A stretch of DNA of 64,000 nt from Saccostrea cucullata. Its lineage: Eukaryota. This document shows positions 3,245-64,000 of this stretch, piece by piece (within the stretch, counting starts at the first letter, position 1; the number at the start of each line of letters is the position of its first letter). The DNA lies in assembly GCF_032062105.1 (NCBI RefSeq), contig NW_026929545.1:310001-374000 (forward strand), given 5' to 3'. Made by a program: the position numbers and the translations under genes. A model generated the notes under the pieces. The model saw only the letters and a program-made list of their open reading frames with translations. It was not told the DNA's origin and searched no databases.

Positions 3245-4307
3245 ATGATGATTTCATTTATTGTAGTGCTCATTTTGGGATCAGGTAAGGAAACATTCAA
3301 ATTTACTATTTGCTGATATTTTACGCAATTATGAGTAAATAAATTTTAAAGAAATAGATATTTTCTGTCTTTTAGCATTGGCTGATGAACCTGAGATCAC
3401 TAATCAACGCCAAATATCCAGCAAACCTGGATTCCATAACGAAAAGAATGCAACCTCAACCAAAGATAATAATGCGTCGCATCCCCCATTAAACTTGAAC
3501 AAAGATCCACTATCTACAAAATACCATTTTTTCCGGCCTCACATGAAAGGAGATATAATAAATCAATGGAGCCAGGATCCAATTACCTTTCGTCCACACA
3601 AAAAAGAAGAGAAATTGAATCATCTGAGCCGGGAACCAAATGTCTTTCATGCTCCTCTAGCTACAATGCTGGGTCACTTAATGAAGACGGGAAAGTTTGA
3701 TGTTATCGCCAATTTTGTTCGACTGGAACTAGTTCGAAAAGGGGAAAAGGGACGACACCATCAACGCCCTTTTATGCCACCACCGGATCAATTATTGTAT
3801 AATTACTACCCAAATCCATTGCAGGTATCTTTCCAACCCAAAAAATTAACTAACGAACCAATTAGAGAGCCTCAAGGTGCATTCGTCAAGCCATTACCTC
3901 AGTTCTCTGGTGCTCGTTCTGTACCCAGAGTTGAGGTTGCCCAGTTAATGTCCAAAGTATCTGCACCAGAAGGGACGTACGGTTTCATTATTCCAGAAAT
4001 TTCAGGGCAAAGAATTCCAAGCGAACAATGGTTGTGGTCACCAGTCTCCGCAGAGTCTGTAGGTCAACCACAGCTTATGACAAATTCTGCCTCAGCAGGA
4101 AGCAGCAATATCAGCAGGCGTCCTGTGCAGGTTCCATTTGAAACGATGTATCAGCAATACCAAAAAATGCAAGATGATTCAAAGATTACTGAAAAATCTT
4201 ATTCGCAACTTTCCAAAATTTACGAAATCTTGAACGCTTTGAAAACTATTAAGTCAGAAACTGGTGCTAAAGAGTTGCAAAACCGAAGCATATTGATGCC
4301 ACTTTAA
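3245..4307 (+). CDS. Cluster gene 1: secreted Pro/Gln/Ser-rich protein of unknown function, ~323 aa; exons 3245-3284, 3376-4307
   Basis: MMISFIVVLILGS|gtaagg...ttttag joins in frame to the 309-aa ORF, giving the signal peptide ...LGSALA-DEPE; C-terminal helix-like segment YSQLSKIYEILNALKTIKS. Confidence 0.8.
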
Positions 4308-4489: not shown

Positions 4490-5131
4490 TTACTTTCTCC
4501 CGAAAGTGCTTGGGTCAAAATTTCCAGCAGTCTGTGAGTTTGGATCAAAGTTTCCAGCAGCCATTGAATTTGGATTAAAGCTACCAGTTCCACCGGAACT
4601 TGGTTGGAAATTTCCGGTTCCACCAGCACTAGGTTGGAAACTTCCGGTTCCCCCCGCACTTGGTTGAAAGCTACCGACTTGTCCCCCACTGCTTACTCCA
4701 GTCTGGGTGTTAGACATGCCTCCAGGGTTAAAACTTCCAGCACTCATAGAGTTGGGGTTAAATGCAGATCCTCCATAACTGTGGGAATTTGGGTCATAAT
4801 TTCCAGCGGCCATGTGATTTGGGTCAAATCCTGGAGCGCCGGAAGGAGAGAAAAGTTGTCGCTTAACTGGGCCTATAATTGAAAAATAGTCATTTTCTCA
4901 CAATGCTTTTATTTTTTAGAACAGAAATTCATATTAAAAAAAAAACAAAAAAAAACCACCCAGCTTTTTATATACATTTGCATAGTAAAATCAATTATAA
5001 ATTAACACTTACAAAATTTATTTTGTTCAATTCATAATTGATTATAAAATCCTTTTCTAAATCATTATTAGATATGTACACTTACTTGAAAAGCACAGTG
5101 GAATTAAAACGAGAATAATTGCACCCTTCAT
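4490..5131 (-). CDS. Cluster gene 2: 142-aa secreted precursor with decapeptide F[DNQ]P repeats; exons 5131-5086, 4872-4490
   Basis: MKGAIILVLIPLCFS-SPVKR-QLFSPSGAPGFDPNHMAAGNYDPN...AGNFDPSTF-GRK*; GT-AG phase-1 intron in frame with ORF 4490..4813. Confidence 0.85.
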
Positions 5132-8560: not shown

Positions 8561-9873
8561 TTATTTCTTTCCAAATGCATTAGGATCAAAATTTCCAGAT
8601 CCTGAACCAAAACCATTAAGTGCGTTGGGGTCAAATGTTGGAGTCTGGAATCCGTTGGGGTCAAATGTGCCCATACCAGAATCTGGCGTACTGAAACCTC
8701 CACCTGCAATGAACAATCACAAAATAAAATTCTTCTATCCTTGCACCATATATAGAAGCAAAAAATTGCTACACTTCAGTAATAGAAACATTATTGTATA
8801 TTTACCAAACCCACTTCCACCAAAACCATGGTTGAGGGCATTTGGATCAAATGCAGCATGAGTTGACGCCATGTTCATTCCGAACCCCCCGCTGCCAAAA
8901 TTTTGGTTTACTGCATTGGGGTCAAAAGGTGCTATAAAACAAAAATCTGATAGATTACCAGACTCACCTGAGACAACGTCCTCTGATATGTATACGTTTT
9001 ATATGAAATTCGCCATTTTTTAGCTACAAATTAAGCTCTCGTCCTTCTCTTAAGGGACATGATTTGAACAAATCGGTTTCTACACTTCAAGACGTTTTGC
9101 TATCGATTACTGCCTCGTTCTTCCTAAATTTATTTTTTTACATTCATTCTTTCTATATATTCCAATGTAAAACCATTACCCTTTTATGACCCCATCCCGG
9201 CCTATCGCCTTGAATATGAACCTACACTCAGTAAAAGAAGAGATGTTCCTTAGTTAATATATTTAATTTTCCATCATCCATAGATGAATGGTGCAAAGTT
9301 TTGTGAAATTGGCAATGTGATTCTTGAGAAGACAATAAAAACGTGAAAAGTGAATATACGTGTACGTAAATGAATACAGATAAACGCTGGAAAATTGACA
9401 CCAAACAACTTCGTTTTAGCCTTCGGCGAAATCAATTACTTAAAAATATGGGGAAAATTCTTTTGATTGCATTACCGTTTTGTGCCAAATCTCAAAATAA
9501 GAATAGAGGATTGACACTGCATAGAGGATATTTTAAATACTGTACATAGATATTTTTTGGTTGAAATTCAACTTCCGATATTTCTATCCCAGAATAAAAG
9601 TCTATTAAATATACTGTTGTTGAAATGTAATAATGATATAAAAATAAGAGGGAAATAAATCAAATTACAAATTAATCAGATGTATACAATAATCAAAACT
9701 TAATTGAAATGTATAATATATTCTTTTCCAAGAATGACAAAAAAATTAGACTTTTATATATATTGCTGATAAAAAAAAAGCCATTGTTTCAAAAAAAAGT
9801 TTTGAAATACTGAATGATTACCCCCAAGACACAAAGAGATCAGGCCTAACAGAGCCAGGAATATTCCAGCCAT
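8561..9873 (-). CDS. Cluster gene 3: 106-aa secreted FDPN/Gly-rich precursor; exons 9873-9822, 8931-8806, 8703-8561
   Basis: MAGIFLALLGLISLCLG-APFDPNAVNQNFGSGGFG...FDPNALNHGFGG...FDPNGFQTPTFDPNALNGFGSGSGNFDPNAF-GKK*; both introns GT-AG, phase 1; reading frame absent from the ORF track. Confidence 0.85.
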
Positions 9874-12040: not shown

Positions 12041-15000
12041 ATGGATTTTATAAAAATCACCATTATATTTTTTTTAGTCACAGGTAAGAAAAATTTATTC
12101 AGAAATTTGGTAAATACTTCAAAGAAAACGTCAAAATGTTAATCTAGCTCAAATAAATTAGATTTCTTTTAGTAAAAATTTGACATATGTGTGATTATAT
12201 AGCTTGATTATCATGGAATGCACAGTAATAGCATTGGAAAAATTATATTTTGTCATAATATTATCATGATAATTTTTACAGAATACAGTTGCATTCCATT
12301 GCCCGGGTTAGAAGGATTGTCATCATCTGGTTCCAATGTATACAAATCACAAATACCAACCGACGAAAATATTCAAAACTTTATCAACGAAGGAGCTGAT
12401 TTCAACGCAATTTTAAATCCCAAAACGAAACAAAAATACCAGACTAAAGATTCAGCTTCTAGTATGCCGATTGTAGCGCAATCAAACTCGCTCCTGAACT
12501 TGTTGGAAAATATAAATGGAGTTCAACTTTTGAAATTATTAAATAACATGATAAAGTCACCAAACGGAGAACAAACCGTTTTAACCAACAACGAGATGAA
12601 ACCTCATGAAATGAATAAAAATCCCTCCGATGCAGGATCTGCGAACAATCAGGAGATTCATCGATATTCATCAATAAGTCCTAGCACTACAAGAATTCCC
12701 TCGAAAAACATTTCCCGAATTCCCTCTGATGCTAGTCGACAAGACTTACAAATAAAGAATATGCAAACAACTGGTTCCGGTGCAACAACTAATGGTGGTG
12801 ATGAGAGTACAGATGAGCATAAACTGTTACATTCATCTGGAACACATAAGCCGCTATCCTCTATACCCTCCGGCACAAATGAAGTGAATCTCCCTCAAGG
12901 CTTTACTGGTGGGATAAATTCTGGTGTAATGGGGGTTCAGGCACTGAATACCAACAACAACGCAGGCATGTATAACCTAGCTCAGCAGTACACCAACCCT
13001 ATGTCGATGTTAGCTGCAGGGATGGGTTCGACAGGAGGAGGAGGAAGCCTGGACAACGTGGAGTCTTCTCCAAACACAGTTGATAATGAGGCTCCACAAG
13101 TGGGAAAGACTCCTGGATTTGATCCCAATCGACTGATGAGCTCTTGGGCAAGTACAAATAACTTCAACCCCGGAGAGTATAACGTTGGACAAAACTTTAT
13201 ATCAACAGACGAATGGACAAAATATGCAAATCAACCCACTGGTTACACTGGTTTGATGCAACATATAACTCAAAACACAATGGGGAGCAACAGCAAAAAA
13301 GAAAATCAAGAAAAGCATACGGAAAACAAATTTCCACAAGAGCATTTTCAAACACAAGGATCGTCTCTGGACACATATCAAAATTCGGCATTGACTGCAA
13401 AAATGAATTTTGCTCCAAATAACATGATTATGCCTGTGTCAAATCCTCAGATGCCGAAATTACCCATAAAATTCAACTTTGATCCCGATAGTTTGAATTC
13501 ATTTACAGGATCCTTTCGGCCTGGGCAGTTTGCACCTGTACCTGCAGCTAATGTAGGGGAAACAGACTTTGGTACGAATGTTATAAAACATCATTTATCA
13601 GGCTTTCCAGATAAAATGCTTTCAAAGCACAATCAACAACTTCAAAATTTAAAGAAAACAGAATATCAGAAATCTCCCGAGATTCCTAAATTTAAACCAA
13701 GTAAAAATGCATTTGAAAATGTTCATATGGGGTTTAGTCCTGATTTTTTCGTAGGACCAATATATCAGTCTTCGAAGAAAATACCACACGTGAGTGATGC
13801 ACAAAGAGCAAAGTTAGAAAATCGAAGCGATCATAAATCTGTTAAAAGCAAACTCTTAGTTTTAAAAAGAGATCAGAATGTTGTTTCTACCACAAGTACC
13901 TCTAGATCAAATTTGACCGTTCAGACAACAACACCCTCTGCTTCTACTACCACAGATAAAACTATAACAACTCCTGATACCTCAAAGACTACATCCCTTG
14001 TAGACATTGGGGGATTCAACCCGGATGAAGTGAACAGACCGGTTATGTATAACCCAGGTATGTCACCAGGAATGAGTGTTGAATCATTCCAAAATTTTCA
14101 GTACAGTCCTCAACATCATAGAGTCAATTCAACTTCAACAGGTCAAACCTTTCAATTTACTGGTATGGGATTTTATCCATCAGAGGTCAATAATGCAAAG
14201 ATGAATTTTGATGTTAATTCGCAACTCGGTATCCCAGGTGGATCTTCATCGGTTAGTGGACAAACCTTTGGTGGAGGTTACGATCCCATTAAAACAAATA
14301 TTCTAGCCATCCAAAATCCATTCTCTACCAACAATCAAACTCAAGGGCCATCTTTCACGGCTGGTAAGGTGTCTGGATTTGGATCTGCCTTCATTGGTTC
14401 CTTCAATCCCAACAGTGTAAATGAAGGTATGATGAAGGATCTGTTGAACTCCCAGGCAAACAGTAACAGTAGTGGGAATTATTTCGGTATGGGAATGACT
14501 GGCTTTGACACGTCTGGATATGGAGGTAATTTCGACCCATCATCAGTAAACAATGCTGTTTTCAATCCAAATGAAGTAAACAATATTAAAATGCACTTTG
14601 ATCCAAGCGAGATGTTGGATAAAAACCCCGGATACGACACCGATAAAGCGCTGGCATATAAGTTTAATCCAAATAACATTAATAACATGCAGGCAAATTT
14701 TCAGCCATTATTTCTACAAAATAACAACGTCCATGAACCTACAAATAGCACTCATGATCCCAAAACCAATCCCTATAATGGCGCTAATTTCGTACCTGGT
14801 TTACTTGGAGGAGGAAGCAAAAATGAAATCCCAATCTTTAATCCAGCAACAGTGAACAATGCTCACATGAACTTTTCCCCAATCGGAGTGAATAACCTCC
14901 CAGACATGCCAAAAAATAACAGCAAGACGAGCAATACTACCAACTCATCAGATGAATCATATTCTTTCTTTAATCCTAATGACATGATTTCCAACATGAA

Positions 15001-15175
15001 TAACCATCCTGCCGGAATTATGAATTCTGTTGAAACACCAAACAAAGAGAGTCGGTCAGAGAATGCTTTTGTCCCAGGTTTACTAGCAGGTGGAGAGGGC
15101 ATTCCCGAAAGTGACAAAATAGAACGAAAAAACGAAAAAGAACAACCTCGAAGTTCGAGTTTGAGAGATATTTAA
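12041..15175 (+). CDS. Cluster gene 4: 978-aa secreted Asn/Ser/Pro/Met-rich protein with many F[DN]P motifs; exons 12041-12083, 12282-15175
   Basis: MDFIKITIIFFLVT|gtaag...tttacag|EYSC-IPLPG in frame with the 985-aa ORF; AATAAA at 15207-15212. Confidence 0.88.
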
Positions 15176-15693: not shown

Positions 15694-18600
15694 ATGTGGC
15701 TGCCATTAATATTAACGGTAGCTTTAATTACCACTTGTGCTAGCCGTGACCTCAGAGGTAGAAAATTTATTAATTCTCTAATTCAAAGAAATTTGAATGA
15801 AATTGACTGATAGAATTTAAACATTTTAAAAATATTTTATTGAGTGCTTCGCTAGTGAATGTATGTAATTGATAATTTTGTTTATGTTTGCTTATTTTTT
15901 TCCTTTTAAAAATGTTTTCGAGATATTATTTGTATACAGTCCGCCAAACACAATCAGGGAGCACAAGCAGTGGAAGTACTTCCGGAAGTGGCTCTAGTTC
16001 CGCTTCAAGTCAGCCCAGTGGGGGATCTAGTTCCGGTTCTGGCCAGCAGCTTTCACAAAATATGCAGCCGCCATCATTTTTACTCAACCCTTCACAATTT
16101 ATGAGTGGCTCAAGTGCGTATGTATCAATATGAATGAGCAATTAAGTCTACCAGATAATTTTTTACAAAATAAAGATTGATACTAGCATAATTAAGACTT
16201 AAACAAGTAATGAAACACATTTATCTAAGGTGTTATTATATAATGGTGTTAAGATTTCTTTGGCAGATCCTCTCCATCAAATCCCGGTGCGGGTAGTGGA
16301 GGATCTAGTGGTTCGTCGAGTAGCGGATCCAGCAGTGGAAGTTCATCTTCACCTTCCTCTAGCAGTGGGAGCTCATCTTCTCCATCCTCTAGCAGTGGAA
16401 GCTCAACTTCATCTTCCTCTGGGAGTGGTAGCTCAACTATCCCAAAGTTTGATCCTAACAAAGTCAACCAAATTCAAGCAAGCTTTTTAGATCCGTCCAA
16501 ACTACAGCTTGGACCATCTGGCGGTGGTGGAGGTGGATTTGATCCCGACCAGTTTAATAGCATGTCATTTAATTTCTTTAATCCCGGTGCACTTTTAAGT
16601 GGCGGTGGAAATCAAGGACCATCCGGAAGGCGTAAGTTGTTTTTGTTTATCAGATGGTTTTACAAAAAGAATGTTCGTTTCATTTAATAGTAGTAATAAG
16701 AAAAGAACTTTTTTATTGAGCTTATTAAAAATTCACTGAATATGCCCTATAATAAGGATTCTTGTATTATTTTTTCATTTTGTAAGGGAGAAGACAAGCG
16801 GCAAGTTCTGGGGGTAGCAGCAGTAGCAGTGGAGGAGGTGGAGGTAGCAGTCCACCAAAGTATGATCCAAACAGTGTCAACAAACTCACATCAAACATGC
16901 TAGACCCATCCTCTTCTAAACTTGGAGCCAGTAACGGTGCCGCTGGTGGATTTGATCCAGATCAGTTTAATACAATGCAGTTCAACTTTTTCAACCCCAA
17001 CCAGATGTCTGGTGGTGGCGGCGGCGGTGGTGGTGGTAGCAGTGGAAGCAGCGGGAGTGCACCAAAGTTTGATCCAAACAGTGTCAACAAAATCCAGGCC
17101 AATATGCTGGACCCGTCTACTTCTAAGCTTGGAGCCAGTGGTGGAGCAGCTGGCGGATTTGATCCCGACCAGTTTAACACTATGTCCTTCAATTTCTTCA
17201 ATCCTCAAGCACAAGTTGGAAAGAGAAGTAAGAATTTGAGTTCGTATTCCTAAATTTTTAACAGAAATTACAGAGCTCACCTCAACTAATGTTGTCTTTA
17301 GAAAGGCAAAGTCCCATACTAAACTGATACTCTGGTAGTGTACATCCCAAGATGCAGCATCTATGCCAGTTTGGTTCAGGTTTGTCTTAATGTTATTTGG
17401 GAATGAACCTGCTCTTTAAACTTGAACCTGGTCCCTTTTCTGGAAAAAAAGTAGCTCAAATTCAGAAACTATATCAACCTTGATAGTGTGCATCAATAAA
17501 TGCGACTTTATTGTAATATTGGTTAGCATAGGGCTTGTAGTCACTTTGCAAATAAACTACTCCGAAAACTATAGAATGGTCACTCATCTGGATAACTGAG
17601 GTCAAAAACAACGCTTTAGCAAGTCCGGTAGTACGCATCCTTAGATGCGTCATCCTAGTTTTGTCAGCATAGGGCTTTTTGCAATTGTTATTTGAAAATA
17701 AGACCTGCTCCAAAACCATTAATTTATAGCTATCTAGAAATGTACAGATCCAGCATCCAAAACAATCCACTTATCTGGAAAATATAGGATAGATCCAGCA
17801 TCCAAAGCAAACCAGGTAGTGTTTATCCTTGGATGTATCATCCATGTAAATTTGGTCAATATAGATCTAATAAAAACTTGGAAATTAGATCTGATCCAAA
17901 AACTTTCACCTTGTCACTCATCCGGAAAATGTGGGTCAGGTCAAGCATCCGAAGCAAGACTCATAGTGTACAGTTTTAGATGTATCATTTGTGTAAATTT
18001 GACCCAAATAAGGTTTATAGTTACTTGGGAATGAGACCTGATCCAAAAATATTCACCTGCTCCAAAAACATTAACCTGGTCCTTATTTAGCTGAAATTGT
18101 AACATCTGAAACCTTGACTGGTACAATGAAACATTCTACAAACATCTTCAATGCATCTCAGCTCAATTCAGGGCATAAAAGAATTTGATAAGAAATCTGC
18201 TCCAAAAAACTTTAACATAAGACGCCGACGGTTTTACATTAGCTTCTCCAACTTCGATGAGGTGAGCTTATTATTCGCTGAGGTGAGCTTAAAAAAGAGA
18301 ACATTGAGCAATTTATATTTCGTCCATAGGCCTCTTAAAACGTCAGAGCTCTCCATCTGGCCCGAGCAGTAGTGGTGGAAGCAGCGGAAGTAGCAGTGGT
18401 GGAAGCAGTCCACCAAAGTATGATCCAAACAGTGTCAACAAACTCACATCAAACATGCTAGACCCATCCTCTTCTAAACTTGGAGCCAGTAACGGTGCCG
18501 CTGGTGGATTTGATCCAGATCAGTTTAATACAATGCAGTTCAACTTTTTCAACCCCACCCAGATGTCCGGTGGTGGAGGCGGCGGTGGTGGTGGTAGCAG

Positions 18601-20320
18601 TGGAAGCAGCGGGAGTGCACCAAAGTTTGATCCAAACAGTGTCAACAAAATCCAGGCCAATATGCTGGACCCGTCTACTTCTAAGCTTGGAGCCAGTGGT
18701 GGAGCAGCTGGCGGATTTGATCCCGACCAGTTTAACACTATGTCCTTCAATTTCTTCAATCCTCAAGCACAAGTTGGAAAAAGAAGTAAGAGTTATAGTT
18801 CGTATTCCTTAAATTGTTAAAAGAGATTACAGAGCTCACCTCAACTAATGTTGTCCTTTAGAAAGGCAAGACTAACCATACTAAACTCATTATCCTTGGA
18901 TGCATCATCCATGCAAGTTTGGTCAATATAGATCTAATAGTTACTTTGAAATTAGGTCTGCTCCAAAAACTTCCACCTTGTCACTCATCTGGAAATGTGG
19001 GTCAGGTCAAGCATCCGAAGCAAGCATGGTGGTGTACATCCCTAGATGTATCATTTGTGTACATTTGGTCAAACTAAGGTTAATACATATGGCTACTTGA
19101 AAAATGCAACCTGATCCAGACTTAAACCTGCTCAAAAAGCATAAAACAAATCCATATTTTGCTGAAACTGCAACATCTGAAACCTTGACTGGTGCAATGA
19201 AACATACTACAAACATCTCCAATACATCTCAGCTCAATTTAGGACATAAAAGTACTTGATAAGAAATCTGCTCCAAAAACTCTAACATAGGACCTCGTTG
19301 TAGTGAGCTAATAATGATTTGAACTTATAAAAAAGACAATATTGAGCTATCTATATTTCTTCCACAGGTCTCTTAAAACGTCAGAGCTCTCCATCTGGCC
19401 CGAGCAGTAGTGGTGGAAGCAGCAGTGGTGGAAGCAGTCCACCAAAGTATGATCCAAACAGTGTCAACAAACTCACATCAAACATGTTAGACCCATCCTC
19501 TTCTAAACTTGGAGCCAGTAACGGCGCGGCTGGTGGATTTGATCCAGATCAGTTTAATACCATGCAGTTCAACTTTTTCAACCCGAACCAAATGTCTGGT
19601 GGCGGTGGTGGTGGTAGTGGCAGTGGTGGAAGCAGCGGGAGTGCACCAAAGTTTGATCCAAACAGTGTCAACAAAATCCAGGCCAATATGTTGGACCCGT
19701 CTACTTCTAAGCTTGGAGCCAGTGGTGGAGCAGCTGGCGGATTTGATCCTGACCAGTTTAACACTATGTCCTTCAATTTCTTCAATCCTCAGGCACAAGT
19801 TGGAAAGAGAAGTAAGTACTTTGTTCACATTTTGAAAATGATTTTAGTTTTATTTAAATTGTTTCTCTGATGTTTATACTGATGTTCTTTTTATTAAGAT
19901 CTTCGAAGACGTCAGACCTCACAAACATCAACTGGTTCCAGTGGGTCAACATCTGGATCATCAACCAGCGGCGGTTCAAGCAGTAGTTCATCTTCCGGTG
20001 GCGCTTCTCAGATGATGAGCCCAAGCATGTTTATCAACCCCAGCAATTTTTTAATGGGAGGAAACTCTGGAAGCAGTAGTGGAGGAAGTTCCCCTTCGTC
20101 AACTTCTTCCTCCTCCCCTTCCACCTCCTCCTCTTCTGGTGGAAGTGCACAACAACCTTCCTTTGATCCAAACAAAGTTAATCAAATTCAGTCCAGTTTT
20201 CTGGATCCTTCAAAGGCACAGCTCGGTTCGGGTGGCTCAGCGTCAGGAGGATTTGACCCTGATGCAGTCAATACTCTGTCATTTAACTTTTTCAATCCTA
20301 AAAATCTTCTTGGACGTTAA
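15694..20320 (+). CDS. Cluster gene 5: 789-aa secreted Ser/Gly-rich polyprotein with eight copies of a ~45-aa FDPN...FNFFNP module; exons 15694-15757, 15940-16117, 16267-16631, 16787-17227, 18330-18785, 19368-19811, 19899-20320
   Basis: Signal peptide MWLPLILTVALITTCAS; all six introns GT-AG and frame-compatible (2370 nt total); junction sequences G-RRRR-Q, G-KR-SLL-KR-Q (twice), G-KR-NL-RRR-Q; ends LL-GR*. Confidence 0.88.
16787..19811 (+). repeat. Tandem triplication of an exon plus flanking intron within gene 5
   Basis: Exons 16787-17227, 18330-18785 and 19368-19811 are near-identical; introns 17228-18329 and 18786-19367 share both ends (attacagagctcacctcaactaatgttgtc; aacatctgaaaccttgactgg...). 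Confidence 0.92.
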
Positions 20321-22044
20321 GAATAAACAGACAAAGAAAAAAGTTCTTTTATTGTAAAAACGATCAGTTTATAACAAAACTTGTTTTTACTTTCCAGATC
20401 TGGTTTTCTTTTCAGAAAAAAAGAGAACAACAATATTCATATGAAATTTATTGCAATGAGCTTATGATATCTAGATCCTTCTTACTGAGTGAAAAGACCT
20501 GGTTATTAAATGATAACTTTTTAAAATTGTCTTCTGAATGAGAAAATTACGATGGCGAATAGATTTCGAATTAGCAGTACGAATGGAGAGCCATTTTACC
20601 CTGGTATGATACCAATAAATGTGATGAAAAATTCACCTCTAGGTTGTATTATTGAAATGTATTACTATAACTCTTATCTGTGAAAAAACGAAATATAGAA
20701 CAGTTTTATGAAGTTGTCTAACAATTAATTAATCAAAATCACATTATAACTAAACGTCAAATTTTATCACGAAAAATTTACATCTGAAAAAGTCGTTAAT
20801 AAACATATCAAAACAACCTTAAAACTGCTTCAAATATAATTCATTGCAAATTTCTATTGGTATGATATAAATTTTGATAACACTACTGAATCAATTTACT
20901 ATTGGGTCACATACAATTGTCCTTGACACTAAATAAGGCGTGATAAAGGGAATGATATACGATAGATAAGGCACATTACATGTTTCCGGTTCTCACAGCT
21001 ACTCTACTAAGACTGATATGTCATCATGCCAAGGTACAAGAAAAGTCTCAGGAAGAGTTTATTTCCATAACAGAACCACTTTTATCGGTGGAATGCAGTA
21101 TCTATAAAAAGTGCCAAAGTCTTGCAGTGCTCCTGACGCGTTTTCCTGATAATGGAATAAAATTGGTGCATGGGAATGCGTATATGCATATTCCACACCT
21201 ATATGACCTTTACAAACAATAAAAGCTTGATGATTCTTTTCACTACAATTACAATGAATGTCATATATCTTTAAATCATTAAATTTTAAGTTTTTGTTAA
21301 AAAAAATTCGAATATTATTTTTTTTTCATTAACTTGAGATACATGTTTATTAAAATGAGAGTAGCTTTATGCTATTTTGCAAAGGATATATACATCATAT
21401 CAAGTGCTACAAATTTCATTCTGCTGTGTTTGAGGACATACGCAAGATACCTTACCTACTGATAATTTTTCAAGATATTCTAAATTTAAACTTATAATAC
21501 CATTACATGTTCCTAGACAAACAATCAGCATACGTTACCAGGGGTTCTGAAAAGATATCAAATTGTGAAAATTTTTGCATTATTCAAAGAAAAATGTACA
21601 AAAATTACAAAACATAAATTACAGATTTTTTTTCATCAAAAATTGTTTTAGAAGAGGTGTACAAATCCATATACATGTATAGACATTAAAATTATTGCAC
21701 ACAGGTCCTTCATTTAGTGGAACTCTTCAACTTCGGGGAAGATTCCAATAAAGTTCAAACTACATTGGGTATGACCTTAACTACTACTTTTGTGAAAGTT
21801 GCATTTGATTTCTATGTTAAGAAGAACAAGGAAAAATTTCAATCATTTTCCATTCAATCTTTTATAGGGGAAACTTATTATTTTTATTATTCTACTCTGT
21901 AGAGTAACGTTCAAAGACCAAAGATCTCGGTCACTCAGGTCTTTGGACAAACATATACCGTTTCGGTTTAGTCGTATTTTTCATACAAACGAAGAAATGA
22001 TATTAATTCTATTTACTATAAGAGGGTCTAGTAAAGCTTTAATA

Positions 22045-23671: not shown

Positions 23672-26600
23672 ATGCTGCCAAATTTCCTTTTATTAACTTT
23701 GATACATTCTATAGCAGCCGTACCCGTTCGGTATGTTTTGGATGTTCAGAAACTTTTTTCTGGTAAGTGTAAATCGTCTCTTGCAACTTTTCAAAAAAAT
23801 TGATGTTATAAAAGAATGAAGTTGAAGATTTGAAGAATGATTGTTGAATGGTAGATGAATTGAATAATTAGATGGTACTTTTAATTTTATTTGAATATTT
23901 TTTGTTTTATATCATCAATCAATCAAAGCTGGATCGGTCCAAAGAAGACAAACATTTGATCCTAACGCCATGATGTTTGCAGGCGGAACTTCCTCCTCCG
24001 GTTCCACATCCAGTAACTCCCAGTACATAGGATCCTTCAACCCTAACCAAATGATGAGCAGCATGGGAAGCGGAATGAATATGTTTAATCCTGGTTCTCA
24101 ATCCGGTGGACAGACTTCGTCACAATCATCAGGTTCCACGGCAACGTTTGATCCTACAAAACTCAACAACCAGTTAAGCAGCTCGTCTGGATCCCAGACC
24201 AGTGGAATGGGTGGGGGATTTAATCCAAATCAGATGATGGGTGGTGGAGGTAGTGGAACATCCACACAACAATCAAGCTCTGGCGGAACTCAGTCCGGAA
24301 GTACAAGTGGAACAAGCAGCTCAGGAACTGGGACCTCGGCATTTGGTGGTAGTTTTAATCCAAACCAACAAGGTGGAGCTCAATTCAACAATCAACTAAG
24401 TAGCTCTACTGGGTCCCAGACAAGTGGTATGGGTGGGGGATTTAATCCAAATCAGATGATGGGCGGTGGAGGTAGTGGAACATCGAGTGGAACTCAGTCC
24501 GGAAGTACCAGTGGTACAAGCAGCTCAGGAACCTCAGCATTTGGTGGTAGCTTTAATTCAAATCAGCAAGGTGGTTCTCAGTTCACAAACCCCATGTCAC
24601 AAATGGGAGGCGGGCAGGGAGGGGCATCATCATCCCTCGTTCCAAATTATAACCCCAATAACGCTGCAGTAAATATGGCAGGCGGGTATGATCCAAATGC
24701 AGCTAACTCCGGACAGGGGACTGGAGGCAACACCCCAACTTTCACCAACGGAATGGGAATGAATGCTAAGCAGCAGTCGATGGGAGGAGGTTCGATGCCA
24801 AGTGGAAATGGCATGACACAGCAATCGGGAAGTGGAAGCGCCATGCTACAAAGTGGTACGAGTAGTGGAGGTGCCTCGTCATTTGGAAGTTCAACAAGCT
24901 CAGGAAGCAGTTCCACTGGAAGCAATACACCTGGAAGTGGAAGTGCGTCCTCCTTTGGAAGTTCATCTGGAACTGGATCAGGCACTTCTTCAAGCGGTAG
25001 TGCTTCTTCTTTTGGTAGTCCAAGTGCATCAGCGAGTACTTCCCAAGGAGGAGCAAATTCATTTGGAAGTCCTACAAACACACAATCTGGGTCTTCAAGT
25101 GGAGGCAGCAGTTCAGGTGCCTCTGCATTTGGTACTCCTATGTCCGGAAGTAGCTCTAGCAGCGGAACATCACAGACTTCCGGTGGGACTTCGATGGCTG
25201 GATCTTTTGATCCTATTAAAACAAATGTCGAAACAACTCAGTCCGGATTCAATCCCTTAAGTCCAGTTTTAGGTATGCTGGAAATATCGATACTCTCACT
25301 TTACACTAAAGTTATTAAAATGAAAAAACGAAAATTTAATCACCGTTGCTCCATTTGGTCTAAAAAATATTTATTCTTCTTTTTTAATAGGAAAGGTACA
25401 AAACTTCATGGGACCCCAGGGTGGTTGTATGTATACCGTTTATCTGTATGTGTCCTAACAGTAATCACATACCTTCTGAATTCCTTTTGGAGACATACTC
25501 TAATTAGTATATAACTATTTTGCTATATTTAAGCATCTGGTGGCACGTTTGATCCTGGTGCAGTTAACACACAAATGGCAGTACAGGGTGCTAGTTTGAA
25601 CATGTTCGGTGGTAAGTACATGTAGAATACACCCAAATACTAATGAACAGTGATAAAAGAACATAGTCTCTGAATGTATAGAATGTTTTATACCATCAGG
25701 CGCTGGAGGTCGGGATGCAAATAAAATGGATGCTAATTCATTAATGGGTGGAGCTCCTGGAATGATGGGTGGGGCGAATCAGGTCAACGGTGGGTCCAGT
25801 GGTGGTAGCGCCGGGGCAAACATGTTTAATCCAATGGGATCAATGATGAGCGGTTCATCCAGTGGCGCTGGTGGGACTTCCGGTCCAATGAATATGATGA
25901 ATACAATGGGATCATCTGTAACAGGACGAACACTCAATTCGGGTGACGTAAAAACTTTTTTATGCTTAAAAAAACCAAACCAAACAAAACAAAAAATTTA
26001 AAGAATAATAGGGCATGAAATACTTATATCTTGACCACGTATTACACTTAATTAACAGGAGGTAGCTCCGTGTCATCTTCCAATCCCATGATGCCTGGTG
26101 GACTTCCACCAGGCGGAAATCCCCTGGATCCAATGGGGGCAATGTCTGGTAATGTTAACTGAATTATCAAATCTTCTCACAAAAACCTAGAAGGAGTGCT
26201 TTTGCTTTAACGCCATTGTATCATTAACCAAAAAATAACTTGCTTTGCATTGTGTTTCAAACGCTTTGTGTTCTCAAGTATTGGTTTTAAAGAAGTGGCT
26301 CGTAAAAAAAACAACATTCAATCATCGCATCGCTATGGAAAGCTAAAGGGTTCAATTTCTAAATTAAAATTCTATATCACTGTTCGCATTTTGTAAAGTC
26401 CACCTTACCTGAAATTTAAGGTGTTGGAATTTTCGAATTTTTGCTTTTTCTGAGAATAGGTTTTTTTCAAAATCATTAAAGCTTATATAGCCTCATTGAA
26501 TTTAATTGAAGAGTATTAAAACCAAGTTAAGAAATGCTTGTTGGCATTTGTAATGTACTTGTCAATCATCAGCTTTCTATCCAAGTCTGTCTTTATGCTA

Positions 26601-26999
26601 TTAGGTGGCGGGGACATTTCTAAGTTTTCTGGAGGTACCAGTCTCGTGGATCCGAAAGGATTTATGAATGGTAAAAATTATCGTTCTTTCTTTATCATCG
26701 AAGAGATGATTATTTTTTCTGAATTAAACATTTCCATTGAGTGGAAAAGTACATCCGTTTTATCATTTTTTTTTAAAGTGTTAGAAAAAAGGGTTATGGC
26801 AAACGATGATCAGGTAGCGTTTTGACATTAGCAACTGTAGAATTTAATAGAGAGAATTAACTTCATAGAAGGTCATATTTTTATATCCGAGAATTGCCAA
26901 CCTATAATTATACCTTTACTCTACCAGACTGAAGCTAAAAATGTATTGTTAATTAAAGATTATTCCTATGATTGAGATAAGGGGACACGAGGGGGGGGG

Positions 27000-27070
<71 letters not shown>

Positions 27071-27907
27071 GAAGTTAGTAACCTTCAAACCTTGATTTTT
27101 TCACAGGAGGAGGATTAACCGGGACCCAGTCAAATCAGTTCTCAATGCTAGGTAAGCGCTTTTTATCTATTTTCATTTTTGCCTTACAAAATATTGTTCG
27201 AAAACGCATGTCTCATTAATTTTTTCCCATTTTTTTTAATACAGGAAAACGTGCAATTAGAGGTAATCTTTATTGTTTTTTCTAACGTTGATTGGAAGCC
27301 AAATGAGGAAAGTTTCGAAATGTATTGTGATAAAATTCCCCTGAAACTTATCAATTTGAGCAGAATTGCAAGATTTATTTAGAATCAAAAATATTTACCA
27401 TCATGTGATTCTTAATTTTGCGAGGACCACCTACTTAGTTTTAGTTTAGTTTAAACCATTTATTTATTTTTAAAAATACAAGCATAGTTTTACAATACAG
27501 ATATTACGTTCGGCTCACACACGATTCGGAAACAAGTTTCAAAAACTTAACTTTATTTGTCTGCCTGTAATTTATTGAAGTAGTGATTTCTTGCTGAGTA
27601 GCACAGAATAATACGGTTTAAAGAAGTTATAATTGCAAGAAAATAAGAATTTGAATACTGCGATACACGAATGCACTTTCACTTGATCGGTACTATTTCT
27701 TTAAAAATTAAATGTATTATTTTCATTTTTTAAAGGTGTGGTCAAGGTATGTTCATTTTTTTAATTTCATATGTTGAATTTTAATACATGTCCCTAAAAT
27801 TTTCAACCGCACTAAAAATAAAATGATCTGAATTTCAGAGAGCAGAAGACAAATACGTGGACTTGTTCTTGTCGCTGTTGGATATTCTTGAGAAAATGTC
27901 AAGATGA
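23672..27907 (+). CDS. Cluster gene 6: 684-aa secreted Gly/Ser/Met-rich precursor with F[DN]PN motifs; exons 23672-23762, 23929-25272, 25534-25611, 25700-25942, 26059-26148, 26605-26670, 27107-27151, 27245-27262, 27736-27746, 27839-27907
   Basis: Signal MLPNFLLLTLIHSIAA; VQRR-QTFDPNAMM; C-terminus FSML-G-KR-AIRGVV-KR-AEDKYVDLFLSLLDILEKMSR*; ten exons in frame (2055 nt); the micro-exons are the least certain part. Confidence 0.8.
27004..27067. repeat. (AT)n microsatellite
   Basis: About 32 uninterrupted AT dinucleotides in a gene 6 intron. Confidence 0.95.
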
Positions 27908-30029: not shown

Positions 30030-33000
30030 ATGGCGGTTAAATTTGTGTTGATTGGACTGCTTTGTTTAAAGGTTTCGGAGGGTAAGTACGAAGATGTATT
30101 TTTGAGAGGTTGGAAAATACCTACAAATCGTACGTCTTCACTTAAATTCCTTCTATTTGTTGATTTAACTTACTTTTCCAAATATGAAAATAAAGTACAA
30201 ATATAGGACAAGGCTGGGGGTCATGATGCAAAATGCTGATACCAAAAATGTCTTGTCAGAAGGAATATGCACAAAAGCTATGTGAAGGTTCTAGCACTAA
30301 TAGTTAAAAAGTTAAAGCCAAGGTTAAAGTTTATTAAAATTTTGCAAAAGTAGGTCAAACTGCAAAGTCAAGAGGTCAAATATATTTGTACCCAGCGAAA
30401 GATCTTGACGACACACGGAATATATATGTAAAATATATATATACATGTATATAAATACATGTACCTACATGTAAAACTCTTTTTAGATTTTAACAGTAGG
30501 CGTTAAAATGTATTTCATATAAATCAATTTCAAATTCCAAAACAGGACTGCCTATGACCTATAACCCCGCCTTTTATAAGGGCCTGAATATACCAGATTA
30601 TAACCCGAACAGCATTCCCTTTGTCAACTACAACCCTATGAAAGAACAAAAGCCGAGACCCTTCTCCGAGTTTCAGTCCATCACAACATCTGTTCCAGAG
30701 GCTCCTAAAATGAATGTGTTCGGTAACCCTGGAAATGCTGGCATCAAGTTCGATCCTAAAATAGTAACACCTTCACCATTCGACAATTTGAAGTTTGATC
30801 CAAATAACCGAAACTTTTTAAAAGGTTTCAATCCCAACTCTTTTGCAGACAAAGGTAAATTTTTCTGGCATTTGTTTTTACTTTTTTCACATTGTCAAAT
30901 TTGTTTGAGATTAGATGCTACAATCTACCTTTCTTTTCTCAGTAGAGCCATTTCAGGTAGTGCAAGTAACAGAATCAACGGCCGGGCATGACTGGGACGG
31001 CGGATGGCCAGGTCTGTAGGTTATCCAACTAATATAGACGTTTCACTTAAGATATGGGATTGTAGTTCACAGATACAGAAACAATAAAAAGGTGGATGTA
31101 CTCGTACACTCAGGCACTGCCAAATTTCACCATTTAAATCTAGAAAAATCAGGGTATAACAATCTAGAGTTAAAATACAGTACTATAATTGGAAACGAAA
31201 AATTCTTCTTAATATTATCGTGTACGTAAAACACAGATCACTATTGTTACAGATCACTAAACGGATACACCATGGAATAATATCCAAAGCTGCTGACATC
31301 TAGCTTAAAATTTCCCCGTTTTTATTACATTTTGCAGCTGGCAAAAGTAATGGAATGGTTCAAACAAAAGCAAACGAGAAAACAGAATCAGGAGCAAACT
31401 CCTCTGGAAACAGCGGAAAAAATGTCTTCGGTAGCTCAGGAAAATCCTGGGATGGAAGCTGGCCAGAGGGTAGTTAGAACGTCATATCACAACATAATAC
31501 AGATAGTCCGCAGATAAATATTTCATTTCAAGCAAGCATGAAAATGATTGCATTTTAAAAATTGCAGGGGATGTAAAAGAATTTTCCTCAAAAGCTACAG
31601 AATCATGGAATTCAGCGGTAGGCGCCAAACAAGTCAATAAAAACTGGCAAGGTAACCGACCTCCCACGTACTTGAAACGATCTCGACTGAGTACTAATAT
31701 TTTTTATATTAATAGTCTCATATTCTTTATCATTTCAGATAATTCAGGAGATTTCTCAAATAAAGCTACAGATTCATGGAACAAAGCACTGAATCAGGGT
31801 AAAAATCAAGGTAAATCAAAACAATCAGAACTCGTTTGACTATTCATTGAATAGTGCAAATTTGTGTGTCGGAAAAATTGAGATCATTGAACACAGATTT
31901 TTTTCCCCCGGAGAGTTGCATTTCTGCAGCTATTCATTGAATAGTTATACAAGGTATATTTCATTTCAAACGAGTATGTTATATTAAATTGCACGGGATA
32001 TAAAAGAATATTTGCATCCACTGAATATTATTTATTTTTTCTCCAGAAAATATCAGATAAAAATATCGAACAGGGATACATTATTGCAGCTATTACACGG
32101 AATATATGGTTTTATATGTCCCAGATTCTTTATCATTTCAGATAATTCAGGAGATTTCTCAAATAAAGCTACAGATTCATGGAACGAAGCACTGAATCAG
32201 GATAAAAATAAAGGTAAATCGCATATTTAATATCATACATAAATATACTAAAATGATGTGGATACGTTGTACAAGATTTTGTATTCACACCAAACAAGCA
32301 AATACCGGTACGTGACAATATAATGATTACCCCAAATTACAACAATGCTTACATATGAGTCATCTTAATCTCAGCTGAGATTTGTCTGGATTTTGATAAT
32401 CAGACTGGACAAGTCAGTGCAAATATCGAACAAGTAAAATTTAAGCTGAAATTTTCTGAGAACTTCTCTACATTGGAAGTGAAAAGGGTTTAAATGCATA
32501 ATTTTTTTTTGACCAATTAAATGAAAAAAAAAACCTTGGTTCAATTGTTGTATAGCAAAATATTTGGAATGAAGTTTCATTGATGTAATAAGATGTGACA
32601 TGAAAAATTATCGTCATTGGATTTCCAGCACATTGATACAAAAGTACCCCCTTGATTTTAATACTTTGTCTTCTATCGCTTTTAAAATACTAGTATAAAG
32701 AGGACATAAACAAGGACCCCTGCAAACTCCAGATTTGCCTTGGAATCAAGTGCTTAGGAACACTCCATGGTCAATTTCAGTCAAAAACAAAACAAAGGTC
32801 TGGCAATCTGCATGAAAAAAAAAGTCTGCCAAAATATGACCAATGATGGGTTATATCTCTTAACAAGGTCATAGTAATGACCATAGAATTTAAAGGAGAT
32901 TGCTGAAATCTATGTAACATCAGCTTATAAAATGATGCCAAATGCCATGAACCGATGACCTTTTAGGTTTCCACTTGCTAAAACTTTCCAACAATGTACT

Positions 33001-33094
33001 CCTCATTCTATTTTCAGGAAACAAAAATGGACTGGAAGAAGTGGATGAGATCATTCAGAGCTTGATAGCGGCACTAGAAAAGCTGTATTCATAA
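30030..33094 (+). CDS. Cluster gene 7: 288-aa secreted protein with [FY][DN]P motifs and Trp-containing exon repeats; exons 30030-30081, 30546-30854, 30943-31011, 31338-31469, 31568-31651, 31739-31810, 32142-32213, 33018-33094
   Basis: Signal MAVKFVLIGLLCLKVSEG-LP; YNPA, YNPN, FDPK, FDPN, FNPN; all introns phase-1 GT-AG; ends LEEVDEIIQSLIAALEKLYS*. Confidence 0.8.
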
Positions 33095-63032: not shown

Positions 63033-64000
63033 CTTAGTGTAGTCTACTTGCAAGCCACATTATATTATAATCTAAAACTGTATTGAAGTAGCAAATTTGA
63101 GAGTAACAGAAATTGCTATCTTTATTAACCAAGGTAATAATGTTAATTGAAGTCAAAAACAGATATAAAGAATTATGTACCTTAGTGTAGTCTACTTGAG
63201 TGCCAAGTTATATTGAAATCATACCAAAACTGTAGGAGGAATAGCATTTTGAAAGAATTTCACAGAAATTTCTATTTTTGGTAACAACGCCAACACCGTT
63301 CGTCGAAATCAAAAACCGATATACAGAATTATGTATCTTAGTGTAGTCTACTTGTGTGCCAAGTTATATTGAAATCAGACTAAATTTGTAGGAGTAGCAT
63401 TTTGAAAGAATTTCACAGAAATTTCTATTTTTAGTAACAATGCCAACACCGTTCGTTGAAATCAAAAACCGATATACAGAATTATGTATCTTAGTGTAGT
63501 CTACTTGTGTGCCAAGTTATATTGAAGTTAGACCAAAACTGTAGGAGGTGTAGCATTTGGAAAGAATTTCACAGAAATTTTTATTTTTAGTAACAACGCC
63601 AACATCGTTCGTCGAAATCAAAAACCGATACACAGAATTATGTAACTTAGTGTAGTCTATTTGTTTGCCAAGTTATATTGAAATCATACCAAAACTGTAG
63701 GAGTAGCAGCATTTTGAAAGAATTTCACAGAAATTTCTATTTTTAGTAACAACGCCAACATCGTTCATTGAAATCAAAAACCGATACACAGAATTATGTA
63801 TCTTATTGTAGTCTACTTGTGTGCCAAGTTATATTGAAGTCAGACCAAAACTGTAGGAGGAGTAGCATTTTGAAAGAATTTCACAGAAATTTCTATTTTT
63901 AGTAACAACGCCAAAACCGTTCCTCGAAATCAAAAACCGATACACAGAATTATGTATCTTAGTGTAATCTACTTATATGCCAAGTTATATTGAAATCAGA
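63033..64000. repeat. ~156-bp tandem satellite array, at least 6 copies, runs off the window
   Basis: cttagtgtagtctacttg or a close variant at 63033, 63181, 63337, 63490, 63646, 63802, 63958. Confidence 0.92.

What the first reader, a model, noticed from the sequence alone, without database searches (positions are those of the whole stretch)
16441..20300. Conserved ~45-aa module repeated eight times in gene 5, a candidate new repeat domain
Consensus P[KS][FY]DPN[SK]VN[KQ][IL][QT][AS][NS][MF]LDPS...LG..G...GGFDPD[QA][FV]N[TS][ML][SQ]FNFFNP, with 1+2+2+2+1 copies in exons 3-7. The module is itself two FDPxx[VF]N-x(5)-[FL][DN]P halves joined by a Gly linker. Its sequence is retained between diverged copies (exon 3 vs exon 7) while the poly-Ser/Gly spacers vary in length, which suggests selection. 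Inference: Phe/Asn-rich FNFFN segments in flexible linkers resemble sticker-and-spacer or cross-beta assembly motifs.
Basis: partly seen in the sequence, partly recalled or inferred. Interest (0 to 1): 0.7.

Follow-up and report, generated by a model that had tools for sequence, protein, structure and literature searches.

The report
Ancient bivalve repeat-peptide precursor
A bivalve gene repeats an apparently undescribed 48-amino-acid unit eight times, a unit shared with clams, scallops and freshwater mussels, in a protein predicted to be secreted and cut like a hormone precursor into five peptides that likely stick together as an extracellular gel or lining, possibly in the gut.

Summary
The repeat is real: eight copies (1+2+2+2+1, exons 3-7) of exactly 48 aa, four distinct types, dN 0.10-0.33 against near-saturated dS. 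(1) The 789-aa protein has a signal peptide and basic sites that would release five 133-177-aa peptides, each starting with Gln and ending before Gly-Lys/Arg (predicted pyroglutamate and amide). (2) Module and processing sites recur in Dreissena, Mercenaria, two scallops and a unionid; one module type is 42/48 identical to Dreissena but only 31/48 to another type in the same protein. (3) The gene lies in a ~40-kb cluster of at least seven F[DN]P-motif genes. No Pfam, PDB, Atlas or literature match was found. AlphaFold gives no folded domain; only the Phe-rich tails of two modules form strands (pLDDT ~69). Best reading (0.45): processed, capped peptides that self-associate into an extracellular gel or lining. 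Thin evidence from two Dreissena paralogues points to the gut rather than mantle. Assembly, processing and tissue are untested.

The parts
15694..15757 (+). Exon 1: ATG, hydrophobic signal peptide (about 17 aa, inferred), start of first basic site
   Evidence: Gene model, GT donor, phase 1; hydropathy peak 2.8 over 9 residues and no later TM segment
15940..16117 (+). Exon 2: Arg|Gln start of predicted peptide 1, Ser/Gly spacer, short conserved LLNP-type motif also present in the Mercenaria model
16267..16631 (+). Exon 3: Ser-rich spacer, module type A, Gly-Arg-Arg end
16442..16585 (+). Module 1 (type A, 48 aa); 42/48 identical to a Dreissena module
16787..17227 (+). Exon 4 (phase 1-1 cassette): Arg-Arg|Gln start, modules B and C, Gly-Lys-Arg end = predicted peptide 2
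   Evidence: a contig joining a type-A end to a type-B start across 107 letters in 2 of 4 runs fits the exon 3-4 join
16855..16998 (+). Module 2 (type B)
17062..17205 (+). Module 3 (type C)
18330..18785 (+). Exon 5 (duplicate cassette): Lys-Arg|Gln start, modules 4 (B, 18413-18556) and 5 (C, 18620-18763), Gly-Lys-Arg end
19368..19811 (+). Exon 6 (duplicate cassette): modules 6 (B, 19442-19585) and 7 (C, 19646-19789), same ends
   Evidence: cassette-to-cassette joint 19811>19368 in contigs of 4 of 4 runs of a related organism
19899..20320 (+). Exon 7: Arg-Arg-Arg|Gln start, Ser/Gly spacer, module 8 (type D, 20156-20299), Gly-Arg-stop
   Evidence: intron 19812-19898 (GT..AG) skipped in contigs of 3 of 4 runs; AATAAA at 20322
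12203..15175 (+). Upstream cluster gene, last exon (990-aa open frame, 13 [FY][DN]P); part of it is fused ahead of the module gene in the Mercenaria model
   Evidence: BLASTP E 1e-13 to P0002 residues 94-236
23895..27262 (+). Downstream cluster gene (Gly/Ser/Met-rich, Arg-Arg|Gln start, 11 [FY][DN]P in its large exon, Gly-Lys-Arg near its end); likely orthologue of Dreissena DPMN_161919
   Evidence: orthology judged by eye on the first 400 residues shown; exon structure beyond the large exon not modelled
4493..4897 (-). Cluster gene, last exon: Lys-Arg|Gln start, 7 [FY][DN]P, Gly-Arg-Lys-stop
8564..8998 (-). Cluster exons with FDPN repeats ending Gly-Lys-Lys-stop; resembles Dreissena DPMN_177200
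   Evidence: comparison by eye
30500..30988 (+). Cluster exon with 6 [FY][DN]P motifs

Best explanation
The gene encodes a 789-aa protein with eight 48-aa modules that is predicted to be secreted and cut at basic sites into five capped peptides, which likely self-associate through their modules into an extracellular protein gel or lining, most likely in the digestive tract. Shown: gene model, repeat, purifying selection, one splice junction and the cassette-to-cassette join in a relative, conservation of module and basic sites across bivalves, the gene cluster. Inferred from established processing rules (proprotein convertase, carboxypeptidase E, PAM, glutaminyl cyclase): five peptides of 177, 141, 144, 140 and 133 aa with pyroglutamate and C-terminal amide, which would protect both ends and remove terminal charges. 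Inferred with weak model support: each module presents four aromatic/aliphatic-[DN]-Pro turns and a Phe-rich strand that pairs with the same strand of another module, so that one- and two-module peptides on flexible Ser/Gly spacers act as mono- and bivalent stickers, without Tyr (DOPA) or Cys cross-links. Least certain: the site (style sac, gastric shield or gut mucosa; about 0.35 among sites).
For: Five of five predicted products start with Gln and end before Gly-Lys/Arg; each phase 1-1 exon encodes exactly one product. In homologues Gln follows 9 of 16 dibasic sites lying ahead of a module, and 35 of 51 distinct flanks after a module (window flanks included) carry Gly-Lys/Arg within 16 residues, 13 run into a spacer, 3 neither. 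Conservation lies inside the module (N9, G24, N39, F43 33/33; aromatic 3 and 33, [DN]4/17/34 33/33 among 33 distinct 48-mers), not at the amidated end, and module length is nearly fixed, as expected of in-register pairing. Composition Ser 25.5, Gly 16.9, Pro 7.9, Asn 7.6, Phe 6.3%, Tyr 0.4%, Glu 0, no Cys in the mature part. In the two-module AlphaFold2 model the only strands are residues 43-51 and 112-120, the equivalent Phe-rich tails (pLDDT ~69). Tissue hints (paralogues only, PMC9210306 supplement): DPMN_177200 foot 67 / gill 6.4 / mantle 0, a profile closer to a secreted GH5 glycosidase (464 / 28 / 0) than to oocyte markers in the same list (FOXL2 154 / 1.1 / 0; H1FOO 576 / 3.1 / 2.4); DPMN_161919 moves in gill samples with a CLCA and a GH18-CBM14 chitinase (logFC -5.6/-3.8, -5.2/-4.4, -5.0/-4.5; logCPM 5.9-6.0), as gut carry-over would. 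Two raw-read RNA runs of the related organism lay almost nothing on the exons (depth 0-0.3 in bins without intronic repeats): not housekeeping.
Against: No experiment on processing, assembly or location. Both AlphaFold models are low-confidence from shallow alignments (21 and 13 rows). Charge-hydropathy values sit on the order/disorder boundary, so neither disorder nor folding is shown. 88% identity across bivalve subclasses is higher than most structural low-complexity proteins keep (recalled) and would also fit a receptor ligand. The tissue hints concern paralogues, not the module gene; the gill changes have FDR 0.46; the three-gene co-variation was picked by eye from one page (part 50 of 248); the 'foot' list also holds gonad genes; the module gene DPMN_099867 is in none of the stored lists, and the gill-specific list was not stored. 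The shipworm crystalline-style proteome is mucin 22.5%, tubulin, collagen, with only 1.97% uncharacterised (PMC8561940), which argues against a major style component there. The first site (Arg-x4-Arg) is a weaker convertase site than the others.
Confidence: 0.45

Rival explanations
1. Signalling precursor: the capped peptides are neuroendocrine or paracrine ligands (or pheromones), and the module is the receptor-binding unit.
For: Textbook prohormone grammar; scallop precursors would release short single-module peptides; extreme, type-specific conservation.
Against: Residues next to the amide vary freely while the core is fixed; products of 130-180 aa are half Ser/Gly spacer; neighbours with the same grammar are long low-complexity proteins; none of four scallop motifs/ids was found in the six stored supplements of a scallop ganglion neuropeptide survey (PMC5996578; sequences in images would be missed).
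Confidence: 0.2
2. Reproductive coat or gonoduct secretion (egg jelly, vitelline or spawning mucus component).
For: The Dreissena list that holds paralogue DPMN_177200 is rich in oocyte genes; variable expression among samples would follow gonad state.
Against: Its gill/foot ratio (0.10) is about tenfold above that of oocyte markers (<= 0.01); gamete-coat proteins usually diverge fast (recalled), this module does not.
Confidence: 0.12
3. Shell, periostracum, hinge-ligament or byssus matrix protein.
For: Secreted low-complexity repeat proteins are typical of these materials; a ligament peptide, LICP, carries pyroglutamate (PMC13080008); the ligament is bivalve-wide and its secreting tissue was not in the Dreissena samples.
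Against: Mantle value 0 for the paralogue; module gene absent from the 361-row mantle list and the byssalome file; no family member among motif hits in four Perna shell-proteome tables, the Pinctada insoluble shell/ligament supplement, silk-like protein supplements or the quagga byssal table; almost no Tyr, Cys or acidic residues.
Confidence: 0.15
4. Host-defence peptides (amidated, Gly-rich) that act on microbes, perhaps by forming fibrils or nets.
For: Multi-copy amidated precursors are common among defence peptides (recalled); a gut or mucus site would fit.
Against: Modules carry net charge -1 to -2, no Cys; strong conservation rather than rapid diversification.
Confidence: 0.08

Closest known systems
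Multi-copy neuropeptide/prohormone precursors processed by PC1/3, PC2 or furin, CPE, PAM and glutaminyl cyclase (established knowledge, recalled)
   Same: Signal peptide, paired basic sites, short excised spacers, Gln at each N-terminus, Gly before each basic site, repeated cassettes.
   Different: Products are 13-17 kDa and half Ser/Gly; conservation is internal, not at the amidated end; no similarity to a named neuropeptide was found.
Bivalve repetitive low-complexity matrix proteins: shematrins, LMP, NU-5, LICP (PMC9210306, PMC7591529, PMC13080008; passages or sections read)
   Same: Secreted, Gly/Ser/Met-rich, repeat-built; LICP is a processed pyroglutamate peptide.
   Different: No G(n)Y arrays, Met-rich block or acidic tract; no match in the supplements searched; the module aligns across subclasses at up to 88% whereas Dreissena shematrins cannot be aligned to Pinctada ones.
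Sticker-and-spacer assembling proteins such as FG-nucleoporin and LARKS-type low-complexity domains (recalled)
   Same: Aromatic motifs in flexible Gly/Ser/Asn chains, low net charge.
   Different: Here the stickers are locked into a fixed-length 48-aa unit and the protein is secreted and predicted to be cut and capped; no sequence relationship tested or claimed.
Plasmodium circumsporozoite NPNA/DPNA repeats (recalled)
   Same: Asx-Pro-Asn turn motif repeated in a flexible chain.
   Different: Analogy of a four-residue turn only; no homology.

Membership tests
Any Pfam domain or repeat family | Profile match at or near the curated cut-off | tested here: not met
   8 exon-level proteins incl. 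three module exons; best on a module exon E 0.078, 13.9 bits vs cut-off 32.8
Any solved fold | Sequence or structure match in the PDB | tested here: not met
   Profile search best E 0.032; Foldseek best E 2.3 on a low-confidence model
Folded repeat domain | Confident compact model of the unit | tested here: inconclusive
   pLDDT 58 / pTM 0.15; 51 / 0.29 for two units; shallow alignments
Convertase-processed, amidated multi-peptide precursor | Signal peptide | tested here: met
   Hydrophobic N-terminus, no TM segment (hydropathy only, no SignalP); paralogues carry SignalP calls in the Dreissena tables
Convertase-processed, amidated multi-peptide precursor | Paired basic sites with Gly before and Gln after, conserved in homologues | tested here: met
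   5 of 5 products; 9 of 16 homologue sites followed by Gln
Convertase-processed, amidated multi-peptide precursor | Mature peptides detected by mass spectrometry | not testable with these tools
   No peptidomic data at hand
Neuropeptide precursor | Conserved motif at the amidated C-terminus | tested here: not met
   Residues between the module and the Gly vary in sequence and length
Neuropeptide precursor | Neural expression and a receptor | not testable with these tools
   Only a blank motif search in one ganglion survey's supplements
Shematrin / DOPA-type shell and byssal proteins | Tyr-rich Gly repeats, mantle or byssal-gland expression | tested here: not met
   Tyr 0.4%; not in stored mantle or byssal lists
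Functional amyloid / phase-separating structural protein | Cross-beta or condensate formation | not testable with these tools
   Only a low-confidence strand pair in a model

The most novel reading that the evidence does not exclude
A bivalve-wide gene cluster makes a material by the hormone route: precursors are cut and capped like neuropeptides, and the released peptides assemble through a fixed 48-aa module (Asx-Pro turns plus a Phe-rich pairing strand, four ancient module types as a recognition code) into a reversible, cross-link-free gel such as the scaffold of the crystalline style or gastric shield, whose structural proteins are still poorly identified (PMC8561940).
Probability: 0.2. 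Interest if true: 0.8.

Novelty: new variant of a known kind. Interest (0 to 1): 0.55.

Why it matters
An unannotated unit kept at up to 88% identity across the main bivalve lineages, with no match in the domain, structure and literature searches run here, marks a conserved function that genome annotation has missed (the database models look partly frame-shifted, partial or fused). The precursor grammar predicts exact peptides and modifications, so the question is directly testable by targeted peptidomics and synthetic peptides. If they gel without DOPA or disulfides they would be a new design for underwater peptide materials and could name the scaffold of a long-known bivalve organ; if they signal, they are an unknown bivalve hormone family.

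Tried and rejected
Assembly artefact: rejected; introns 4 and 5 are only 84% (408 nt) and 73% (224 nt) alike while exons 4 and 5 differ at 7 of 422 aligned letters, and a relative's contigs show the cassette-to-cassette join. Two scripts with off-by-one exon borders were discarded. Run finder: no RNA holder listed on record. Complex prediction of three module copies: no verdict (score 0.02, alignment not used). Atlas: no usable hit for P0003 or P0007. Foldseek: nothing at E <= 0.001. Of 26 representative hits, four (P0035, P0040, P0042, P0043) lack the module on inspection and were dropped; P0039 looks error-ridden but was left in the column counts. A homologue search with the Mercenaria middle region found only itself. 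Own genome: only the eight window copies, with two different queries. Literature: full-text searches for FDPN+repeat+oyster (1 irrelevant paper), FDPN+bivalve (0), DPMN_099867 (0), KP79_PYT10582 (0), DDB_G0289901 (3 insect/crustacean papers), six motifs (50 papers; the 20 listed held only the four-letter term, 30 not listed) and three topical searches found no description. Passages of an oyster larval-adhesive paper gave gene ids that could not be tied to this family. A 1960 paper on style composition is not held. Subscription journals, image-only sequences, bioRxiv supplements and the unstored part of the Dreissena archive were not seen and could hold a description. Bivalve restriction is not claimed: all five named species are bivalves, but the collection also returned no named oyster or mussel protein, so its gaps are large.
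Full report
OBSERVATION. A seven-exon gene (15694-15757, 15940-16117, 16267-16631, 16787-17227, 18330-18785, 19368-19811, 19899-20320; all introns GT..AG) gives one open frame of 789 aa. There are four distinct types: A (exon 3), B and C (exons 4-6) and D (exon 7). The core motif [FY][DN]P occurs 24 times against a mean of 0.50 (maximum 6) in 2000 shuffles. Between types dN is 0.10-0.33 while pS is 0.64-0.94; between recent copies all 7 changes are synonymous. Exons 4-6 are phase 1-1 cassettes; exons 4 and 5 differ at 7 of 422 aligned letters while their introns align at 84% and 73%, which suggests recent duplication with gene conversion of the coding part (inference).

TRANSCRIPTION. No run holding the stretch is on record as RNA. 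Contigs from runs of a related organism (piece identities about 93-95%) skip intron 19812-19898 at GT..AG in 3 of 4 runs and join 19811 to 19368, cassette to cassette, in 4 of 4 runs from four studies; cover stops at the exon borders. Exons 1-2 and introns 1-2 were not covered, so those joins rest on the open frame and on homologues. Two raw-read RNA runs with the same species label lay almost nothing on the exons, so expression is restricted; tissues are not given.

The N-terminus is hydrophobic and there is no later membrane segment. Basic sites sit at the exon joins: Arg-x4-Arg|Gln24, Gly-Arg4|Gln206, twice Gly-Lys-Arg plus a five-residue spacer ending Lys-Arg|Gln, Gly-Lys-Arg plus a spacer ending Arg3|Gln655, and Gly-Arg-stop. 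By the established convertase / carboxypeptidase / PAM / glutaminyl-cyclase rules (own knowledge) this yields five peptides of 177, 141, 144, 140 and 133 aa with 1, 2, 2, 2 and 1 modules, all starting with Gln and all amidated. The grammar is conserved: Gln follows 9 of 16 dibasic sites ahead of a module in homologues, and 35 of 51 distinct flanks after a module (window included) carry Gly-Lys/Arg within 16 residues; 13 lead to a second module or spacer, 3 to neither. Many of those records are single-exon gene calls, so flanks are not independent.

RELATIVES. Searches found the module in Dreissena polymorpha (DPMN_099867), Mercenaria mercenaria, Ylistrum balloti, Mizuhopecten yessoensis and Potamilus streckersoni (two neighbouring genes on one contig), all unnamed, plus unnamed records: 24 proteins in the large collection and 26 among 50% representatives, four of which lack the module. 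Of 54 full modules 38 are distinct and 33 of these are 48 aa (two 52, one 53, two clipped); N9, G24, N39, F43 are invariant and P18, L23, P35, D36, F46, P48 are kept in 32 of 33 (the four window types built the profile). Window type A is 42/48 identical to a Dreissena module but 31/48 to window type B; in a tree of 32 rows (48 columns, mostly unresolved) one starred fork (96/95) joins types A and D with Dreissena, Mercenaria and Ylistrum modules, apart from B and C. Module types therefore look older than the split of these lineages (inference from a short alignment, unrooted).

CLUSTER. [FY][DN]P[NDST] occurs 53 times in open frames of window 1-33000 and once in 33001-64000; 80 kb upstream holds 13, ten of them in one 519-aa frame at G000:C11682:302369-303925 that starts after Arg-Arg and ends Gly-Arg-Lys-Arg. 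At least seven genes over about 40 kb share the motif, and several share the Arg|Gln start and Gly-basic end. The Mercenaria model fuses a relative of the upstream gene ahead of the module gene (E 1e-13), so the linkage is likely old. The full module is found only in this gene in the own genome. The module thus looks like a fixed, fourfold arrangement of a turn motif that the neighbours use loosely (inference).

STRUCTURE. No Pfam, PDB sequence, Foldseek or Atlas match. AlphaFold2 on one module with 21 rows: pLDDT 58, pTM 0.15, one short helix. On the B-C pair with 13 rows: pLDDT 51, pTM 0.29; the best-scored parts (~69) are two strands at 43-51 and 112-120, the equivalent Phe-rich tails, each followed by a short helix; being the only strands they must pair with each other (inference from DSSP). 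Charge-hydropathy is on the boundary. So 'domain' is unproven; a conditionally ordered pairing motif fits better.

WHERE. Only indirect evidence, from the supplement of the zebra mussel genome paper (PMC9210306: passages, four supplement searches, parts 1 and 50 of 248 of its archive). The module gene is in none of the stored lists (foot-specific 174 rows, mantle-specific 361, three DEG lists, byssalome; the gill-specific list was not stored). Two paralogues are. DPMN_177200 (signal peptide, Gln start, FDPN repeats, Gly-Lys-Lys end) reads foot 67, gill 6.4, mantle 0. That 'foot' list also holds oocyte genes and a secreted GH5 glycosidase, so the sample likely carried gonad and gut; the paralogue's gill/foot ratio (0.10) is nearer the GH5 (0.06) than the oocyte markers (<= 0.01). 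DPMN_161919, by eye the orthologue of the gene at 23895, shifts in gill samples together with a CLCA and a chitinase (FDR 0.46, three rows picked by eye). Both hints favour gut and disfavour mantle margin. Against a major style role, the shipworm style proteome has only 1.97% uncharacterised protein (PMC8561940, passages), though the same paper says the style's structural proteins are little known. Motif searches found no family member in the supplements of PMC6641155 (4 files), PMC7591529 (4 files; parts 1-2 of 6 of the text read), PMC4944945 (7 files), PMC5996578 (6 files) or the text of PMC6474901 (passages). PMC13080008 and PMC6337334 were seen as passages.

MECHANISM AND RIVALS. Best reading (0.45): secreted, cut and capped peptides that associate through the module into an extracellular gel or lining, probably in the gut. 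Shown: repeat, selection, conservation, cluster, part of the splicing. Inferred: secretion, cleavage, capping, strand pairing, assembly, site. Rivals: signalling ligand 0.20 (fits the grammar and conservation; not the variable amidated end or the long spacers), shell/ligament/byssus 0.15, reproductive coat 0.12, defence peptide 0.08.

NOVELTY. It works like a multi-peptide precursor and, by inference, like a sticker-and-spacer matrix protein, but it is not a member of any named family tested. No description was found in ten full-text searches, which exclude most subscription journals. The scan's own index had no note on this place or on look-alike DNA; other notes on this genome call the animal an oyster, which I did not test. 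Verdict: real, ancient, apparently undescribed; function untested; interest 0.55.

Noticed in passing
G000:C11682:302369-303925 (L016:2369-3925, +), just upstream of the window: 519-aa Gly/Ser/Met-rich frame with ten FDPN-type motifs, a half module, Arg-Arg start and Gly-Arg-Lys-Arg end; resembles Potamilus CHS0354_015533 in its opening motif; extends the cluster.
   Followed up: partly
window 17250-18300 and 18800-19330 (introns 4 and 5): Degenerate ~147-nt repeats that attract many contigs and reads from RNA runs: a high-copy interspersed element present before the exon duplication.
   Followed up: no
window 16787-17227 vs 18330-18785: Module DNA identical at all ~60 synonymous sites while flanking introns have diverged 16-27%: likely gene conversion limited to coding cassettes.
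   Followed up: partly
window 3339-4304 (+): 322-aa exon inside the cluster without the FDP motif but with a Gln-Arg|Gln start; no Pfam match above cut-off.
   Followed up: no
window 31330-33060 (+): Short exons of the last cluster gene, including a duplicated mini-exon rich in Trp/Asn/Lys (31740-31810 and 32140-32215).
   Followed up: no
window 34400-43700 (-): Multi-exon gene with Arg/Glu-rich tract and RNA-binding-protein-like features (RBM25-like by recall) closes the cluster on the right.
   Followed up: no
P0001, P0002 (database models): The Dreissena model appears to read Ser/Gly spacers in the wrong frame between modules, and the Mercenaria model fuses two genes; annotation errors may explain why the family is unnoticed.
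   Followed up: partly
L012:5513-6319 and L015:3929-4678 (+): Two related 250-270-aa single-frame ORFs upstream of the cluster with similar N- and C-terminal stretches; not searched.
   Followed up: no
PMC9210306 supplementary foot-specific list: The 'foot-specific' set contains oocyte genes (FOXL2, H1FOO, CPEB1) and a digestive-type GH5, so it should not be read as pure foot tissue.
   Followed up: partly
window 59253-60546 and 63149-64000: Satellite arrays of 166 and 156 nt.
   Followed up: no
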